Shown in pieces: positions 2,521 through 40,489 of a stretch of 64,000 nt of DNA (positions within the stretch are counted from its first letter, which is position 1; every line of letters begins with the position of its first letter). The notes beneath the pieces are model-generated. The model was given only the letters and a program-made list of their open reading frames with translations, was not told the DNA's origin and did not search any database. The stretch comes from Escherichia coli (GTDB taxonomy: Bacteria > Pseudomonadota > Gammaproteobacteria > Enterobacterales > Enterobacteriaceae). The translations under genes and the position numbers were made by a program. The stretch lies in assembly GCF_046105845.1 (NCBI RefSeq), contig NZ_CP151004.1, one strand, 5' to 3'.

Positions 2521-2927
2521 GTGAAAAGGTGGTGTTCAGTCAACTGAGCCGTAAATTTATTGATGAGAACGATGCCACGCCCGCCGAGGCGCAGCAGGTG
2601 GTCTATTACAGCCTGGCGATTGGTCACCACCTTGGGGTTATCGATTGCCTGGAAGCGGCGCTCACCTGTCCGTGGGATGAATATCTGGCATGGATTGCCA
2701 CTCTGGAGGCGGGCAGCGAAGCCCGCCGCAAAATGGAAGGCGTGCCGAAATATGGTGAGATCGTCATCGACATTAACCATGTGCCGATGCTGGCCAACGC
2801 ATTCGATAAAGCCCGGGCAGCGCAAACTTCGCAGCAGAAGGAATGGAGTACAATGCTGTTAAGTATGCTGCATGATATTTATCAGGAAAACGCCATCTAT
2901 TTGATGGTGAGGAGATTGCGTGACTGA
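2517..2927 (+). CDS. hycH: Formate hydrogenlyase maturation protein
   Basis: 136 aa; ATGA overlap with hycG; operon position. Confidence 0.9.
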
Positions 2928-3390
2928 CGTTTTACTCTGTGTTGGCAATAGCATGATGGGCGATGATGGCGCAGGCCCGCTACTGGCGGAAAAGTGCGCC
3001 GCCGCGCCGAAAGGTCACTGGGTGGTGATTGACGGCGGTAGTGCACCGGAAAACGACATTGTCGCTATTCGCGAACTGCGCCCTACGCGACTGCTGATTG
3101 TCGACGCCACTGATATGGGGCTAAACCCCGGCGAGATCCGCATCATCGACCCGGATGACATCGCCGAGATGTTTATGATGACTACCCATAACATGCCGTT
3201 GAACTACCTTATCGACCAGTTGAAAGAAGATATTGGCGAAGTGATTTTCCTCGGCATCCAGCCGGATATCGTCGGCTTTTACTACCCGATGACCCAGCCG
3301 ATTAAAGATGCGGTGGAAACCGTTTATCAACGACTGGAAGGCTGGGAAGGGAATGGCGGATTCGCGCAGTTAGCGGTGGAAGAAGAGTAG
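2920..3390 (+). CDS. hycI: Hydrogenase-3 maturation endopeptidase
   Basis: 156 aa, N-terminus [22 protein letters not shown]; overlaps hycH end by 8 nt. Confidence 0.92.
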   Translation: MTDVLLCVGNSMMGDDGAGPLLAEKCAAAPKGHWVVIDGGSAPENDIVAIRELRPTRLLIVDATDMGLNPGEIRIIDPDDIAEMFMMTTHNMPLNYLIDQLKEDIGEVIFLGIQPDIVGFYYPMTQPIKDAVETVYQRLEGWEGNGGFAQLAVEEE

Positions 3391-3448
3391 TTCGTAGACA
3401 AACATGTTCACGTTTTGGAATTTGGACGTGCAATTGTGACGTGTAGAC

Positions 3449-3473
3449 GGGTGTTTACATATTGTGAACACCC
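3449..3473. promoter_or_regulatory. Inverted repeat GGGTGTT-N11-AACACCC upstream of the toxin gene; candidate antitoxin operator
   Basis: Perfect 7-bp inverted arms read directly in the sequence; a second related pair (tgttcac near 3406 / gtgaaca near 3464) lies nearby; about 85 bp upstream of the ATG at 3557. Confidence 0.35.
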
Positions 3474-3556
3474 GTGTGATCAACTACTATAGAAAAATAA
3501 ATCCGAAGGAATGGTAGTCCAGGTTTAGTCATTCAGGCGCTAATAAGGAAGTTAAA

Positions 3557-3868
3557 ATGCACATCATTTCTAAAGCGCCATTTGAAGAGTGTGCGCGCAA
3601 ATATCCTAACGACGCTCTGGCTCTACACTCATTGTATCGGGTTATTAAGGAAACGGATTTTTCTACACCAGAAGAAATGCGAACGGCGTTTCCCAACCTC
3701 GACAATTTTAGATATCGCAACAAATGGTACGTTCTGGATGTCGGCGGGAACAATCTTAGGGTTATTGCCTACATAAACTTTGTTAATAAGCGGTTCTTTG
3801 TGAAGCACATAACGAATCACGCAGAGTATGACAAACTGACACGTTACTACAGAGAGAACAAAGAATGA
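3557..3868 (+). CDS. HigB-family (RelE/ParE superfamily) mRNA-interferase toxin
   Basis: 103 aa; recognisable similarity to E. coli HigB (FPNLDNFRY...YVLDVGGNNLRVIA); SD aaggaag upstream; toxin-first order typical of higBA. Confidence 0.75.
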   Translation: MHIISKAPFEECARKYPNDALALHSLYRVIKETDFSTPEEMRTAFPNLDNFRYRNKWYVLDVGGNNLRVIAYINFVNKRFFVKHITNHAEYDKLTRYYRENKE

Positions 3869-4284
3869 CTGCTAATGCTGCACGCGCTGTTAAAGCAACA
3901 AGAGAACTGGTCAATGCAGTCCCCTTTCTGGGAGGTAGTGACTCAGAAGATGATTATCGTGAAGCACTGGAACTGGTCGAATATTTGATTGAAGAAGATG
4001 ACACCAATCCACTTATCGACTTTCTGGCGAGCCGCATTGCAGAATATGAAAACAACAACGAAAAGTTTGCCGAGTTCGACAAAGCCGTTGCAGCAATGCC
4101 GGTTGGCGTGGCGTTACTTCGTACGCTGATTGATCAACATAATCTGACCTATGCGGATTTGAAGAACGAAATCGGCTCTAAATCCCTGGTCAGTCAGATT
4201 TTGTCTGGACAACGATCCCTGACGATATCCCATATTAAGGCACTTTCAGCCCGATTTGGCGTTAAGCCGGAATGGTTTCTTTGA
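3865..4284 (+). CDS. HigA-family HTH (XRE-type) antitoxin
   Basis: 139 aa; start overlaps toxin stop (ATGA); C-terminal HTH-like segment (GSKSLVSQILSGQRSLTISHIKALSARFG) resembling HigA. Confidence 0.75.
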   Translation: MTANAARAVKATRELVNAVPFLGGSDSEDDYREALELVEYLIEEDDTNPLIDFLASRIAEYENNNEKFAEFDKAVAAMPVGVALLRTLIDQHNLTYADLKNEIGSKSLVSQILSGQRSLTISHIKALSARFGVKPEWFL

Positions 4285-4310
4285 TTTTGACTGATGCCAA
4301 ACGCCAGATT

Positions 4311-4335
4311 GCCCGATGCGCAACGCTTATCGGGC
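4311..4335. repeat. REP-like palindromic element
   Basis: gcccgatgcgcaacgcttatcgggc resembles the REP consensus; lies between the antitoxin gene and the ascB 3' end. Confidence 0.4.
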
Positions 4336-4362: not shown

Positions 4363-7253
<2,891 letters not shown>

Positions 7254-28167: not shown

Positions 28168-28244
28168 GCATCCGTAGCTCAGCTGGATAGAGTACTCGGC
28201 TACGAACCGAGCGGTCGGAGGTTCGAATCCTCCCGGATGCACCA
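28168..28244 (+). tRNA. argV: tRNA-Arg (anticodon ACG), copy 1
   Basis: 77 nt gcatccgtagctcag...gatgcacca; anticodon loop cuACGaa. Confidence 0.9.
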
Positions 28245-28378
28245 TATTCTACATATTTTCAGCGATGAAGGTATGGAAGAGGTGGCGGTAATAACCGCAG
28301 GCACTAGGGAGGATAACGTTGCTTTAGCAACGGCCCGAAGGGCGAGCCGCAAGGCGAGTAATCCTCCCGGATGCACCA
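28245..28378 (+). repeat. Inter-tRNA repeat unit ending in a 19-nt copy of the tRNA-Arg 3' end
   Basis: aatcctcccggatgcacca at 28360..28378 identical to the tRNA-Arg 3' end; the unit has a paralogue at 28800..28932. Confidence 0.6.
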
Positions 28379-28442
28379 TCTCTTACTTGATACGGCTTTA
28401 GTAGCGGTATCAAAAAATCTGCAGTAAAGTAAGTTTCCCGAT

Positions 28443-28519
28443 GCATCCGTAGCTCAGCTGGATAGAGTACTCGGCTACGAACCGAGCGGTCGGAGGTTCG
28501 AATCCTCCCGGATGCACCA
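28443..28519 (+). tRNA. argY: tRNA-Arg (ACG), copy 2
   Basis: Identical 77-nt tRNA-Arg sequence. Confidence 0.88.
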
Positions 28520-28582
28520 TCTCTTACTTGATATGGCTTTAGTAGCGATATCAATATCAGCAGTAAAATAAATTTTCCCGAT

Positions 28583-28659
28583 GCATCCGTAGCTCAGCTG
28601 GATAGAGTACTCGGCTACGAACCGAGCGGTCGGAGGTTCGAATCCTCCCGGATGCACCA
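28583..28659 (+). tRNA. argZ: tRNA-Arg (ACG), copy 3
   Basis: Identical 77-nt tRNA-Arg sequence. Confidence 0.88.
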
Positions 28660-28722
28660 TCTCTTACTTGATATGGCTTTAGTAGCGATATCAATATCAG
28701 CAGTAAAATAAGTTTTCCCGAT

Positions 28723-28799
28723 GCATCCGTAGCTCAGCTGGATAGAGTACTCGGCTACGAACCGAGCGGTCGGAGGTTCGAATCCTCCCGGATGCACCA
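28723..28799 (+). tRNA. argQ: tRNA-Arg (ACG), copy 4
   Basis: Identical 77-nt tRNA-Arg sequence. Confidence 0.88.
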
Positions 28800-32365: not shown

Positions 32366-32381
32366 TCAGTTTAAGCAGAAG

Positions 32382-32414
32382 AGGCCGGGCTGGTGAAATC
32401 ACCGCCCGGCTTTT
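32382..32414 (+). terminator. Intrinsic terminator shared by convergent luxS and the HD-kinase gene
   Basis: gccgggc-tggtgaaatcaccg-cccggc hairpin followed by tttt; the minus-strand stop is at 32416..32418. Confidence 0.75.
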
Positions 32415-32415
32415 A

Positions 32416-33528
32416 TTACCTGTCAGTCACCCAATATTCCACACTATGTGCTTCATCAGGTTGAGGAACTTCCAGCCTTGAGGCCATCCGCATCACGACC
32501 GCTTCAGGAACTGCATACTCGCGTCTGGCATTTTGCTGCTTCCATTGCTCCCATGGCACTTCCAGATAAACGATTTTTACTCGTGCGCCGTAAGCCGTAA
32601 ACAGACTGATGAGCTGGCTACGCAGCTGGCGGGTAATGTTCGTCGCATTCCAGATGAACGGCTTTTTCTGGCGTAAAAAAACGCGCGCCTCTTCTTTTGC
32701 CTGTTGCACAATACGCCCGGTGGCGGTTTTGTCGTCCGGGCTGGCATTGATTCGCCGCCGCATATCATCAAGGCTGATAACGTCCATTCCCAGGCACAGT
32801 TCACTGATATAGCGATCTTTGCCCATACCCGGTAAGCCACACAGCAAAATAACCTCAAAAGATTCAGCCTCCCAGGGAACAAAATCAGGAGAACTTTGCT
32901 CATGAGTCAGGTAGTGCCAGCGTGCGGAATCAGACACGAACGGGCGCGCTTTTCCCCAGCATTGTTGCTCATGGCAAAACAGCTCGAACAGATCGATGCG
33001 TTCCAGCATTGATTGCTGGTCCGGGCTTTGGCGACCAAGCAGATCGGCACGAGCAAGCAAAGCGAGCAAACGCGTGTCGATGCGCATTGCAGCTGTGAGC
33101 AGCAAACGCTCCGGTTCCGGACGTTCCAGTAACCATAGCGGTAACCCATGCAGACGCACCAGCGCAACAATTTGCTCGCGTAGCACGAACGGCGTTGGGA
33201 TATCGCGCCATAAAATTTGTCGGGCCGTCAGTTCGCCCCGACGAGCATGGCCAGGCGACTGAATACGTCCGTTTTCCTGCACGGTAGTGCTGCGCTTTTC
33301 AACATCATGCAATAACGCCGCCGCCCATAAAACTTCCTGCTGTTGAGCGGGGAGTTGCTGGAATTCTGGCAGAGTAACGAGGGCGTTAAGTACCATTTCG
33401 GTATGCACGCCGACGTCGCCTTCACCATGATGCTCCGGGTCTTGTGGCGTGTGATGCATCTCCTCAACCCAACTGAAACGCTGGCGTAGCGCCGACCAGC
33501 GTTTATCGTCGGTAAGCTGCCAAATCAT
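32416..33528 (-). CDS. HD-domain phosphoesterase fused to a P-loop polynucleotide-kinase-like domain (putative end-healing enzyme)
   Basis: 370 aa; N-terminal HD signature ([11 protein letters not shown] ... AALLHDVEK ... GHARRG ... RLHGL ... ARADLLGR); C-terminal Walker-A-like [12 protein letters not shown] with Walker-B-like DVISLDD; start overlaps the upstream ligase stop (ATGA). Confidence 0.65.
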
Positions 33529-34232
33529 GATTGTTCTCCATAGGTGAACTCATGGGCCATCCGCGCCCGTTGCCAGTGGCGTTTCCAGTGTACGGTAGTT
33601 TTGACATGATTTTTGCGTACATACTTGAAGACGTTATGCGAAAAGTCAGCGACGGAAAACGCATCACGATTCCGGCTGACAATGCCTTCCAGCGTACAGG
33701 GTTGCCCGGTTTGTGTATCCCAGGGATCGAACGCGCCGCGCGCATTGGTCAGCGCCAGAAAATCACGTTGCCAGCTTTTTTCATCATTCCCCGGCTGCGG
33801 GCCGGAGATTTCGGGAACGCAGGGGAAATCAAACAGAGCGGCGTAAAACTGCACCTCTTCCCAGCTCAGCCACATATCCTGGCAGCGAACGGCAAACAGA
33901 TAAAAATCCTGCTCCAGGGCGCGATATTCAATCGAATGGACGGCATAAAGATTTTCACCAAACAACTCCAGATCGCCGAGATCGTTTTTCAGCAGTTGCC
34001 AGCGTTGGCGAATTTTATAGGTCCATGCCGACTGCGTAGGCGCGGCATGGGAACGGGCAAACACGCCGTAGCGGTTAAGGCAGTTATTTTCACCGTCGAG
34101 TTTTTCTGTGTGCACCAATTGCGTGATGGCCTGTAAATCCTGCCAGTAATCGGTGTTAATACGGTCATCGCTGGTGGTGCCAGGGGAGAAAGGATAATGC
34201 CAGGTTCTCCCGTATTTTCGTTGGGTATTCAT
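33525..34232 (-). CDS. ATP-dependent RNA ligase, Rnl2-like nucleotidyltransferase
   Basis: 235 aa; motif [10 protein letters not shown] (KxDGxN), motif III-like [11 protein letters not shown], motif IV-like EGIVSR, motif V-like FKYVRKNH. Confidence 0.65.
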
Positions 34233-34456
34233 AATAATCCATTATTTTGTGTGTAATAAATGTACGCCCGCGAGGGTGCGAGTTATGGGGTTAAAAGAAA
34301 AATGTGAGTATCACCCGCGAAAGCGAGGGCGAAGGAAAAAGAGAATTAACAACCTGAGCGAATGCTCAGAACCGGTTAATGGTGAATGGAAGAGTTTGGG
34401 GCGGCGAAAAGATACACCGAATGAGTGGATAAAACAACCGTTTGCAAAATGAGCAA

Positions 34457-34480
34457 ATAAAAAGGGAGCCGCAGCTCCCT
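34457..34480 (-). terminator. Intrinsic terminator of emrB
   Basis: Minus strand: gggagctgcggctccc hairpin followed by tttttatttg. Confidence 0.7.
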
Positions 34481-34489
34481 TTGACAACC

Positions 34490-40335: not shown

Positions 40336-40489
40336 TATTTTTGTTCATCAGATGATGATTAAGCTGGAAATCAATAATAGCGGATGTTGATGAATATGGG
40401 ATGAAAGATAGATTGTTGAAATGTGCGGTGTGGTTTGTAGGCGTGATAAGACGCGTCAGCGTCGCGCATCCCTGCGCGGTTATCAATAT

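What the first reader, a model, noticed from the sequence alone, without database searches (positions are those of the whole stretch)
3557..4284. HigB/HigA-like toxin-antitoxin module between hycI and ascB
A 103-aa HigB-like toxin and a 139-aa HTH antitoxin with overlapping stop/start occupy a gap that, as I recall, holds only a short intergenic region in K-12. Both proteins resemble the known E. coli HigB/HigA (YgjN/YgjM) pair found at a different locus, so this is a paralogous accessory module.
Basis: partly seen in the sequence, partly recalled or inferred. Interest (0 to 1): 0.55.

Follow-up and report, generated by a model that had tools for sequence, protein, structure and literature searches.

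The report
HigB/SehA-family toxin-antitoxin pair, E. coli
This is a real but ordinary two-gene toxin-antitoxin module that about a fifth of E. coli strains carry between hycI and ascB; its closest studied relative is Salmonella SehAB rather than E. coli K-12 HigBA.

Summary
ORFs 3557..3868 (103 aa) and 3865..4284 (139 aa) overlap by ATGA and lie between hycI and ascB, where K-12 has only 158 bp.

The first protein matches Pfam HigB_toxin PF09907 (E 1e-22). The second is a HigA-type antitoxin with a C-terminal HTH. Both match the solved K-12 HigBA complex 5IFG (E 2e-21 and 3e-35). RefSeq already annotates the pair.

- **Closest relative.** The toxin is nearer to Salmonella SehA (57% identity) than to K-12 HigB (38%). 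It keeps all eight residues required for SehA toxicity; K-12 HigB lacks four. SehA is reported to inhibit RNase III rather than cut mRNA.
- **Operator.** The family motif GTTNNCA-N3-TGNNAAC occurs once in the 64 kb, at 3453-3469, over the likely -35.
- **Population pattern.** Of 5426 complete E. coli genomes, 1091 carry toxin plus antitoxin, 1417 carry the antitoxin alone, and none carries the toxin alone.
- **Mobility.** Homologues at 60-80% identity are common on enterobacterial plasmids.

Verdict: a correctly identified, uncharacterised member of a known family. Interest is modest.

The parts
3391..3556 (+). Upstream region specific to this structural variant ('variant A'). It runs from the hycI stop codon to the toxin ATG and holds the promoter, the operator and a leader of about 60 nt.
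   Evidence: Found in 343 of 5426 genomes, always single-copy and chromosomal. It has no megablast similarity to the corresponding region of the commoner variant B. It is not on any true plasmid.
3447..3475 (.). Palindrome ACGGGTGTTTACA-TAT-TGTGAACACCCGT, the predicted antitoxin operator. The family motif GTTTACATATTGTGAAC lies at 3453-3469.
   Evidence: The inverted repeat has 13-nt arms, 92% complementarity and a 3-nt spacer. GTTNNCA-N3-TGNNAAC has one exact hit in the whole 64-kb window, at this position. The same motif lies upstream of the toxin gene in K-12 higBA, in Salmonella sehAB and in at least 25 related loci of other genera.
3462..3490 (+). Putative sigma-70 promoter: -35 TTGTGA (3462-3467), 17-nt spacer, -10 TACTAT (3485-3490).
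   Evidence: Read from the sequence. It is positionally homologous to TTGTAA-N17-TATAGT in relatives, where the first operator also overlaps the -35. It matches only 8 of 12 consensus positions and the consensus scan did not call it. This is an inference.
3545..3551 (+). Shine-Dalgarno-like AAGGAAG, 5 nt before the toxin ATG.
   Evidence: Read from the sequence.
3557..3868 (+). Toxin gene, 103 aa, HigB_toxin (PF09907) family, SehA-like subgroup.
   Evidence: RefSeq WP_000547557 is named 'type II toxin-antitoxin system HigB family toxin'.
3865..4284 (+). Antitoxin gene, 139 aa. The N-terminal domain is HigA-type and binds the toxin and dimerises; the C-terminal domain is an XRE/HTH_3 DNA-binding domain (residues 85-138).
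   Evidence: RefSeq WP_000126294. All eight residues mutated in SehB are conserved.
4290..4294 (.). ACTGA, the right-hand copy of the 5-bp direct repeat that flanks the module in variant B and is single at empty sites.
   Evidence: Junction comparison of occupied and empty sites.
4311..4335 (.). Hairpin GCCCGAT-N11-ATCGGGC followed by TTTCC. It is shared with the empty K-12 spacer and is the probable terminator for the convergent TA and ascB transcripts.
   Evidence: The sequence and its alignment to the K-12 and O55:H7 spacers. The terminator scan did not call it because the loop exceeds 8 nt. This is an inference.

Best explanation
This is an intact, chromosomally fixed type II toxin-antitoxin operon of the HigB_toxin (PF09907)/HigA-HTH family. 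It belongs to the subgroup that includes Salmonella SehAB.

One promoter (about 3462-3490) transcribes the toxin gene first and then the antitoxin gene, translationally coupled through ATGA. The antitoxin dimerises and binds the toxin through its N-terminal domain. Through its C-terminal HTH it binds the single palindromic operator at 3453-3469, which overlaps the -35, and so represses the operon. When the labile antitoxin is depleted, free toxin slows growth by shutting down translation.

[quoted passage not shown] The K-12 HigB mechanism, ribosome-dependent mRNA cleavage, gets about 0.4.

Shown here: gene anatomy, family membership, conservation of functionally tested residues, the operator motif and its comparative support, and the population pattern. 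Inferred: toxicity, neutralisation, autorepression, promoter position and target.
For: - **Family.** Pfam PF09907 at E 1.2e-22; HTH_3 at residues 85-138; full-length matches to the solved HigB-(HigA)2-HigB complexes 5IFG, 6KML and 5YCL.
- **Subgroup.** 57% identity to SehA against 38% to K-12 HigB. The residues required for SehA toxicity (Y53 D61 H88 Y91 K93 T95 Y97 Y98; PMC12817084) read YDHYKTYY in the window toxin and YNHYFTVH in K-12 HigB.
- **Antitoxin.** All eight SehB residues needed for repression and dimerisation (Y32 L42 L52 I60 S107 L121 L129 F140; PMC7160566) are conserved.
- **Operator.** There is a unique exact hit to GTTNNCA-N3-TGNNAAC in 64 kb. The motif lies upstream of the toxin in K-12, in Salmonella and in at least 25 other loci, and almost nowhere else in those 8-kb loci. 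Its central bases co-vary with toxin clade and with the HTH recognition helix.
- **Population logic.** The toxin gene is in 1091 genomes, and those same 1091 carry the antitoxin. The antitoxin is in 2508. That gives 1417 orphan antitoxins and 0 orphan toxins. At least two independent deletions remove the promoter and the toxin but spare the antitoxin.
- **K-12 HigBA precedent.** Autorepression by the antitoxin, Lon dependence and translation-dependent cleavage (PMC2814082).
Against: - No experiment on this locus was found in the searched literature.
- NCBIfam has no model that hits the toxin.
- The promoter matches only 8 of 12 consensus positions and the scan did not call it.
- The E. coli module has one operator and a leader of about 60 nt, where most relatives, SehAB and K-12 have two operators 38 nt apart or less. 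Regulation may therefore differ.
- The antitoxin is no closer to SehB (45%) than to K-12 HigA (46%).
- The RNase III mechanism rests on one 2026 paper. The founding SehAB paper (PMC3868539) is marked retracted and is not relied on here.
- The residues that mark 'SehA-likeness' could equally be catalytic residues of an undetected RNase activity.
Confidence: 0.8

Rival explanations
1. The architecture is the same TA operon, but the toxin is a ribosome-dependent mRNA interferase like K-12 HigB (YgjN), cutting translated mRNAs in the A site. It is not an RNase III inhibitor.
For: It has the same Pfam family and fold as K-12 HigB, and K-12 HigB cleaved only translated mRNA in vivo (PMC2814082). H88, Y91, T95 and Y53 are shared by all three proteins. 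PGAP and JGI name the relatives 'mRNA interferase HigB'.
Against: The toxin is only 38% identical to K-12 HigB against 57% to SehA. Four of the eight SehA-critical residues (D61, K93, Y97, Y98) are present here but absent from K-12 HigB. SehA showed no endoribonuclease activity (PMC12817084).
Confidence: 0.35
2. The module's selected function is phage defence by abortive infection, like the HigB-containing system PD-lambda-2. It is not stress or persistence control.
For: PADLOC profiles PD-Lambda-2_A (E 1.9e-15, full length) and PD-Lambda-2_B (E 2.4e-14) hit the two proteins. PD-lambda-2 protects E. coli against lambda-vir by abortive infection (PMC9519451). A 76%-identical toxin is encoded in Cronobacter phage JK004. 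The distribution in E. coli is patchy and accessory.
Against: The match to PD-Lambda-2_B covers only profile positions 9-115 of 402. [quoted passage not shown] In PD-lambda-2 it is component B, not the HigB-like A, that is toxic. The locus is not in a defence island; it sits among core genes.
Confidence: 0.15
3. The module is a selfish plasmid-derived addiction cassette that landed in the chromosome and is now decaying, with no host-level function. The many orphan antitoxins are simply the only viable decay intermediates, or they act as anti-addiction immunity against plasmid-borne homologues.
For: 1040 plasmid records encode a homologue, 523 of them at 60-80% identity, in Klebsiella, Leclercia, Enterobacter, Serratia and others. 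The module is flanked by a 5-bp ACTGA repeat at occupied sites, with a single copy at empty sites. Losses are frequent and independent, and always remove the toxin first. The antitoxin protein WP_000126294 is identical in the paired and orphan states.
Against: This concerns ultimate function and is compatible with the mechanism above, not exclusive of it. The toxin gene is full length in all 1091 carriers at the DNA-coverage level and at least 95% identical in 1087 of them, which does not look like free decay.
Confidence: 0.3
4. The pair is an inactive relic: open reading frames are retained but the toxin is no longer toxic.
For: There is a single, displaced operator and a weak promoter. No experimental data exist for this locus.
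Against: Both ORFs are full length. All eight toxin residues and all eight antitoxin residues tested experimentally are conserved. Among 5426 genomes none has the toxin without the antitoxin, while 1417 have the antitoxin alone. Under neutrality both kinds of orphan would be expected.
Confidence: 0.07

Closest known systems
SehA/SehB of Salmonella enterica serovar Typhimurium (STM4031/STM4030.S)
   Same: The toxin is first and is 103 aa, with the same Pfam family. It is 57% identical and 75% similar with no gaps. All eight residues required for SehA toxicity sit at identical positions. All eight SehB residues required for repression and dimerisation are conserved. The stop and start overlap. 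The operators share the architecture GTTnnCA-N3-TGnnAAC over the -35.
   Different: The antitoxin is only 45% identical. The operator core is GTTTACA..TGTGAAC rather than GTTTTCA..TGAAAAC, and there is one copy rather than two. The chromosomal site differs: hycI-ascB here against fdhE-yiiD next to sehCD. The window pair belongs to a sister clade, 60-79% identical, with members in Leclercia, Yokenella, Pantoea, Kluyvera, Photorhabdus and on plasmids. Binding to RNase III is untested.
HigB/HigA (YgjN/YgjM) of E. coli K-12, structures 5IFG, 6KML and 5YCL
   Same: It has the same Pfam family, gene order and protein lengths (103/139 aa against 104/138 aa). The alignments are full length (E 1.8e-21 and 2.5e-35). 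The antitoxin has an N-terminal toxin-binding and dimerisation domain and a C-terminal HTH. The operator is a palindrome with a 3-nt spacer over the -35.
   Different: Identity is only 38% for the toxin and 46% for the antitoxin. K-12 HigB lacks D61, K93, Y97 and Y98. The operator core is GTTGCCA..TGGCAAC. The locus is fadH-rlmG.
PD-lambda-2 anti-phage system (Vassallo et al. 2022)
   Same: Component A is a HigB_toxin-family protein. The N-terminal part of component B is HigA-like. Both profiles hit the window proteins.
   Different: PD-lambda-2 B is about 400 aa with a C-terminal ImmA/IrrE-type peptidase and is itself the toxic part. A third gene is required for defence. The window pair has neither the peptidase domain nor a third gene.
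Plasmid Rts1 HigB/HigA of Proteus vulgaris (Pfam PF05015)
   Same: It shares the name, the toxin-first gene order and an HTH antitoxin.
   Different: It is a different Pfam family. The window toxin hits only PF09907 in Pfam-A. The P. vulgaris antitoxin has its HTH at the N terminus (PMC7160566). SehA is only 25% identical to it.

Membership tests
Type II toxin-antitoxin operon (generic) | Two small, adjacent, co-oriented genes that are translationally coupled or overlapping | tested here: met
   3557..3868 and 3865..4284, both on the + strand, overlap as ATGA.
Type II toxin-antitoxin operon (generic) | The antitoxin carries a DNA-binding domain, and a palindromic operator lies in its own promoter | tested here: met
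   HTH_3 at residues 85-138. The palindrome at 3447-3475 contains the family operator motif, which is unique in the window and is conserved upstream of homologues. Binding itself was not tested.
Type II toxin-antitoxin operon (generic) | The toxin inhibits growth and the cognate antitoxin neutralises it | not testable with these tools
   Only indirect support is available: 0 orphan toxins against 1417 orphan antitoxins in 5426 genomes.
HigB_toxin (PF09907) / K-12 HigBA type | The toxin matches the PF09907 profile | tested here: met
   E 1.2e-22, model positions 4-73 of 74. 5IFG chain A matches at E 1.8e-21 over residues 1-100.
HigB_toxin (PF09907) / K-12 HigBA type | The toxin gene lies upstream of the antitoxin gene, and the antitoxin has an N-terminal toxin-binding domain and a C-terminal HTH | tested here: met
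   Gene order. Alignment to 5IFG chain B over residues 9-138. Identity by domain is 39% for the N-terminal domain and 57% for the C-terminal domain.
HigB_toxin (PF09907) / K-12 HigBA type | Ribosome-dependent cleavage of translated mRNA | not testable with these tools
   Shown for K-12 HigB only (PMC2814082). It is disputed for the SehA subgroup (PMC12817084).
SehAB subgroup | The eight residues required for SehA toxicity (Y53 D61 H88 Y91 K93 T95 Y97 Y98) | tested here: met
   The window toxin reads YDHYKTYY at those positions and K-12 HigB reads YNHYFTVH.
SehAB subgroup | The SehB residues needed for repression and dimerisation (Y32 L42 L52 I60 S107 L121 L129 F140) | tested here: met
   All eight align to identical residues: Y31 L41 L50 I58 S105 L119 L127 F138.
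SehAB subgroup | Two GTTTTCA-N3-TGAAAAC operators 38 nt apart over the -35 and -10 | tested here: not met
   The window has one operator with the core GTTTACA..TGTGAAC, at -104 from the ATG. SehA-clade loci in Citrobacter and relatives keep the Salmonella type.
SehAB subgroup | Orthologous chromosomal position (fdhE ... yiiD, next to sehCD) | tested here: not met
   Compare the Salmonella locus L039 with hycI-ascB here.
SehAB subgroup | [quoted passage not shown] | not testable with these tools
   Reported for SehA only (PMC12817084).
PD-lambda-2 defence system | Component B is a HigA-like HTH fused to a C-terminal peptidase (about 400 aa) | tested here: not met
   The window antitoxin is 139 aa and matches only positions 9-115 of the 402-position profile.
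PD-lambda-2 defence system | A third gene (related to a P4 antitoxin) that is required for defence | tested here: not met
   The next gene downstream is the convergent ascB. The requirement for the third gene is from PMC9519451.
Proteus/Rts1-type HigB (PF05015) | The toxin matches PF05015 (HigB-like_toxin/RelE) | tested here: not met
   PF09907 is the only Pfam-A hit with independent E at or below 10.

The most novel reading that the evidence does not exclude
The E. coli toxin is a second RNase III inhibitor of the SehA kind rather than an mRNA interferase. In addition, the antitoxin-only allele carried by about 26% of E. coli, including ST131 and UTI89-type B2 strains, is kept by selection as immunity against the closely related toxins of enterobacterial plasmids, or as a stand-alone regulator. 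It is not a mere decay product.
Probability: 0.25. Interest if true: 0.55.

Novelty: new member of a known kind. Interest (0 to 1): 0.3.

Why it matters
On its own the module is one more accessory type II TA pair. It is already named by RefSeq and is counted in pangenome TA surveys: HigB_toxin forms three clusters in 950 E. coli genomes (PMC10790755).

Three things give it modest value.

- **A tractable system for the mechanism question.** The toxin is the E. coli relative of SehA. It therefore offers an E. coli system in which to test whether RNase III inhibition is general to this branch of the HigB_toxin family, or whether K-12 HigB and SehA really differ in mechanism.
- **A natural specificity series.** The three operator types (GCCA, TTCA and TACA cores) co-vary with the HTH recognition helix. 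This could be used to study antitoxin-DNA insulation.
- **A clean population signature.** 1091 paired, 1417 antitoxin-only and 0 toxin-only genomes is a clear signature of addiction logic, and it raises the question of what the orphan antitoxin does in pandemic B2 lineages.

Tried and rejected
- **NCBIfam.** No model hit the toxin. The only antitoxin hit was a spurious 16.9-bit match to an antiporter subunit, far below its 156-bit cutoff.
- **Consensus promoter and terminator scan.** It called nothing relevant on the + strand. The promoter and terminator assignments therefore rest on comparison with relatives and with the empty site.
- **Literature.** No paper mentions the locus or the RefSeq accessions.
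- **Genome-contig scan.** It did not return Salmonella enterica, or several species known to carry homologues, so it is not exhaustive. I recovered SehA and SehB through a chimeric protein query. I verified them against published primers (PFNEAM, HIVSHAE, AYYRGNKE*), the published residue numbering, and the published 40% identity to K-12 HigB (41%).
- **Supplements.** The supplementary files of PMC12817084 are not held.
- **Retracted paper.** PMC3868539 is marked retracted. I used it only as a pointer and re-derived the sehAB palindromes from sequence.
- **PD-lambda-2 membership.** Considered and rejected because the peptidase domain and the third gene are missing.
- **Prophage origin.** Considered and found weak: only 16 phage records hit, one of them at 76% identity.
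- **Second operator.** No second operator was found in the window promoter at up to 2 mismatches.
- **Origin of the upstream 166 nt.** I checked for a source outside E. coli chromosomes. There is none on plasmids; the one 'plasmid' hit is a 4.9-Mb mislabelled chromosome.

Full report
**1. Observation**

The ORF list shows 3557..3868 (+, 103 aa, ATG) and 3865..4284 (+, 139 aa, ATG). The sequence shows the stop and start overlapping as ATGA, and AAGGAAG five bases before the first ATG. Upstream is hycI (2920..3390 +). Downstream, convergent, is ascB (4363..5787 -). The RefSeq annotation of strain KE55 is 99.9% identical over the spacer and gives the same coordinates. In K-12 MG1655 the hycI-ascB spacer is 158 bp and has no gene.

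**2. Family**

The 103-aa protein matches Pfam HigB_toxin PF09907 (E 1.2e-22) and nothing else in Pfam-A. The 139-aa protein has an HTH_3 domain at residues 85-138. Both align over their full length to the solved E. coli and Shigella HigB-HigA complexes: 5IFG, 6KML and 5YCL at E 1.8e-21 for the toxin, and 5IFG chain B at E 2.5e-35 for the antitoxin. BLASTP against K-12 YgjN and YgjM, translated from the K-12 fadH-rlmG locus, gives 38% and 46% identity. PGAP already names the toxin 'type II toxin-antitoxin system HigB family toxin' (WP_000547557). It names the partner only a helix-turn-helix protein (WP_000126294).

**3. The closest characterised relative is SehAB, not K-12 HigBA**

A 2026 paper reports that Salmonella SehA, a 'HigB-like' toxin, is not an endoribonuclease. 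[quoted passage not shown] Toxicity requires Y53, D61, H88, Y91, K93, T95, Y97 and Y98 (PMC12817084).

I recovered the SehA and SehB sequences as follows:
- A protein search gave candidate sequences.
- A Salmonella contig with the published fdhE ... sehDC ... sehAB ... yiiD context confirmed the locus.
- The sequences match published primer-encoded peptides and residue numbers.
- They reproduce the published 40% identity to K-12 HigB (41%).

The window toxin is 57% identical and 75% similar to SehA without gaps. At the eight critical positions it reads YDHYKTYY, identical to SehA, whereas K-12 HigB reads YNHYFTVH.

The window antitoxin is equidistant from SehB (45%) and K-12 HigA (46%). It nevertheless conserves all eight SehB residues shown to be needed for repression and dimerisation (PMC7160566).

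**4. Clade and mobility**

The closest proteins are 73-79% identical and come from Leclercia, Yokenella, Pantoea, Phytobacter, Kluyvera, Klebsiella aerogenes and Kosakonia. Those from Salmonella subspecies arizonae and diarizonae, Hafnia, Photorhabdus and Xenorhabdus are 60-68% identical.

tblastn finds a homologue on 1040 plasmid records, 523 of them at 60-80% identity. Klebsiella, Serratia, Leclercia and Enterobacter predominate. Only 16 phage records hit. The window pair thus belongs to a mobile clade that is sister to the SehA clade. Both clades are about 35-41% identical to K-12 HigB.

**5. Operator and promoter**

A 13-nt-arm palindrome lies at 3447-3475: ACGGGTGTTTACA-TAT-TGTGAACACCCGT.

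| Locus | Operator(s) |
|---|---|
| K-12 higBA promoter | GTTGCCA-ATC-TGGCAAC |
| Salmonella sehAB promoter | GTTTTCA-ACT-TGAAAAC and GTTTTCA-GGT-TGAAAAC |
| This window (3453-3469) | GTTTACA-TAT-TGTGAAC |

The positions shared by the two known systems define GTTNNCA-N3-TGNNAAC. I fixed this form after seeing all three sequences, so it is partly post hoc. The pattern has exactly one perfect match in the 64-kb window, at 3453-3469; about 0.06 matches are expected by chance.

In 32 related loci from other genera the motif lies upstream of the toxin gene in nearly all. It is usually present as two copies 38 nt apart, at -73/-35 or -67/-29. There is only one other perfect hit anywhere in those roughly 8-kb loci.

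The central bases track the clade:
- The window's clade uses GTTYACA..TGTRAAC.
- The SehA clade uses GTTTTCA..TGAAAAC.
- K-12 uses GTTGCCA..TGGCAAC.

The HTH recognition helix differs in step: SKSLVSQILSGQRSLT, SKSNVSNILNGRRALT and SKSMVSRVLSGKRKLT respectively.

In relatives the first operator overlaps a -35 TTGTAA, 17 nt before a -10 TATAGT, and the second operator covers the start site. The window keeps the homologous TTGTGA (3462-3467)-N17-TACTAT (3485-3490). It has no second operator at up to 2 mismatches and has a leader of about 60 nt in its place. The promoter matches 8 of 12 consensus positions and the scan did not call it, so it is an inference.

**6. The locus across E. coli**

Among 5426 complete genomes:
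- The toxin gene is in 1091 (20.1%), always single-copy, chromosomal and full length.
- Exactly 1091 genomes cover at least 80% of the query spanning toxin plus antitoxin. That coverage is impossible without both genes.
- The antitoxin gene is in 2508 (46.2%).

This gives 1091 pairs, 1417 orphan antitoxins, 0 orphan toxins and 2918 genomes with neither gene.

| State | Content between hycI and ascB | Frequency or example |
|---|---|---|
| A (this window) | Module directly after hycI | 343 genomes |
| B | A 253-aa hypothetical ORF, then the module | about 748 genomes |
| C | N-terminal stub of that ORF fused to the last ~35 nt of the toxin gene, then the antitoxin | UTI89, ST131 |
| E | The full ORF, then the antitoxin | LR-25 |
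| ORF only | The ORF alone | MMC-J-0091 |
| D | Empty | K-12, O157/O55:H7 |

The C and E deletions have different junction sequences, so the toxin was lost at least twice independently. Each loss also took the promoter.

At occupied B sites the roughly 895-bp module is flanked by ACTGA. Empty sites have one copy. The K-12 spacer still carries the fused start and end of the 253-aa ORF (ATGT|TCTTGATGGGGTGA), so it is a deletion scar.

State A differs from B in the whole 166-nt upstream region: there is no megablast similarity. From 3 nt before the ATG onward the two are 97.6% identical. This points to recombination at or near the start codon.

The antitoxin protein is identical (WP_000126294) in states A, B, C and E.

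**7. Mechanism**

What is shown:
- An intact toxin-first, overlapping two-gene operon of the PF09907/HigA family.
- Conservation of every residue tested experimentally in the closest characterised system.
- A family-specific operator over the likely -35.
- A population pattern in which the toxin never occurs without the antitoxin.

What I infer: the antitoxin neutralises the toxin through its N-terminal domain and represses the operon through the operator, and loss of antitoxin frees a toxin that shuts down translation.

For the target I put about 0.5 on RNase III inhibition, as in SehA, and about 0.4 on ribosome-dependent mRNA cleavage, as shown for K-12 HigB (PMC2814082). The RNase III mechanism rests on one paper. 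The original SehAB paper is retracted and I did not rely on it.

**8. Other readings**

PADLOC profiles of the PD-lambda-2 defence system hit both proteins. However, that system's B component carries a peptidase domain and is itself the toxic part, and a third gene is needed for defence (PMC9519451). Neither the domain nor the third gene is present here, so membership is rejected. A defence role is not excluded.

A purely selfish, plasmid-derived cassette in decay fits the plasmid distribution and the toxin-first losses. An anti-addiction or regulatory role for the orphan antitoxin is possible but untested. An inactive relic is unlikely, given the residue conservation and the absence of orphan toxins.

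**9. Verdict**

The finding is real and correctly interpreted at family level. The module is already annotated in RefSeq and is counted in pangenome TA surveys (PMC10790755), but I found no experimental work on it. It is a new, uncharacterised member of a known kind. Interest is modest. The interest comes mainly from the link to SehA and RNase III, from the operator-specificity series, and from the widespread orphan antitoxin.

Noticed in passing
window 32371-34488: About 2.1 kb between luxS and emrB is absent from the closest genome, KE55. It holds two overlapping minus-strand ORFs. One, 33525..34232 (235 aa), has a KxDG ('EKLDGEN') nucleotidyltransferase or RNA-ligase-like motif. The other, 32416..33528 (370 aa), has an N-terminal HD/HDIG-like region and a C-terminal P-loop region that weakly matches polynucleotide kinase-phosphatase (TIGR04075, E 4.6e-8, far below the cutoff). 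It looks like an accessory RNA-repair-type cassette. There are no PADLOC hits.
   Followed up: partly
L003 (UTI89) 1819-2449; L040 (LR-25) 543-1788: 1417 of 5426 E. coli genomes (26%), including UTI89 and ST131, keep only the antitoxin gene at hycI-ascB. Its protein is identical to the paired version. At least two independent deletions removed the promoter and the toxin but stopped about 35 nt before the antitoxin start.
   Followed up: yes
L002 569-1330; K-12 spacer L005 1916-2073: Many strains have a 253-aa hypothetical ORF between hycI and the module. It has a signal-peptide-like N terminus and no PHROG hit. The K-12 and O55:H7 spacers retain its first and last few codons fused together, so the 'short intergenic region' of K-12 is a deletion scar.
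   Followed up: partly
L006 1729-2456 (K-12 higBA): The canonical K-12 higBA is itself polymorphic. It matches in 4377 of 5426 genomes but is at least 80% complete in only 2825. A published report describes an orphan higA at fadH-rlmG in CFT073 and NRG857c (PMC7232551).
   Followed up: no
L007-L036 (related loci), positions about -75 to -20 before the toxin ATG: Across genera the operator core dinucleotides (TACA/CACA, TTCA, GCCA) co-vary with the toxin clade and with three positions of the antitoxin's HTH recognition helix. This gives a natural specificity series.
   Followed up: yes
window 28168-28799: The tRNA-Arg(ACG) array after tRNA-Ser is spaced differently from that of KE55: 275 nt between the first two copies against 141 nt. 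ARAGORN also calls an overlapping minus-strand tRNA-Arg(TCG) at 28188-28259, which is probably spurious.
   Followed up: no
window 62778-62853 and beyond: A tRNA with anticodon CAT is annotated tRNA-Ile in KE55. In KE55 it is followed by a frameshifted DUF5507 gene and a recombinase fragment, which suggests a decayed tRNA-associated island at the window's end. Upstream, KE55 annotates an intact alpha-amylase-family glycosyl hydrolase next to glaH.
   Followed up: no
window about 40428-40472: About 340 bp present in KE55, between an MFS transporter gene and proX, is missing from the window.
   Followed up: no
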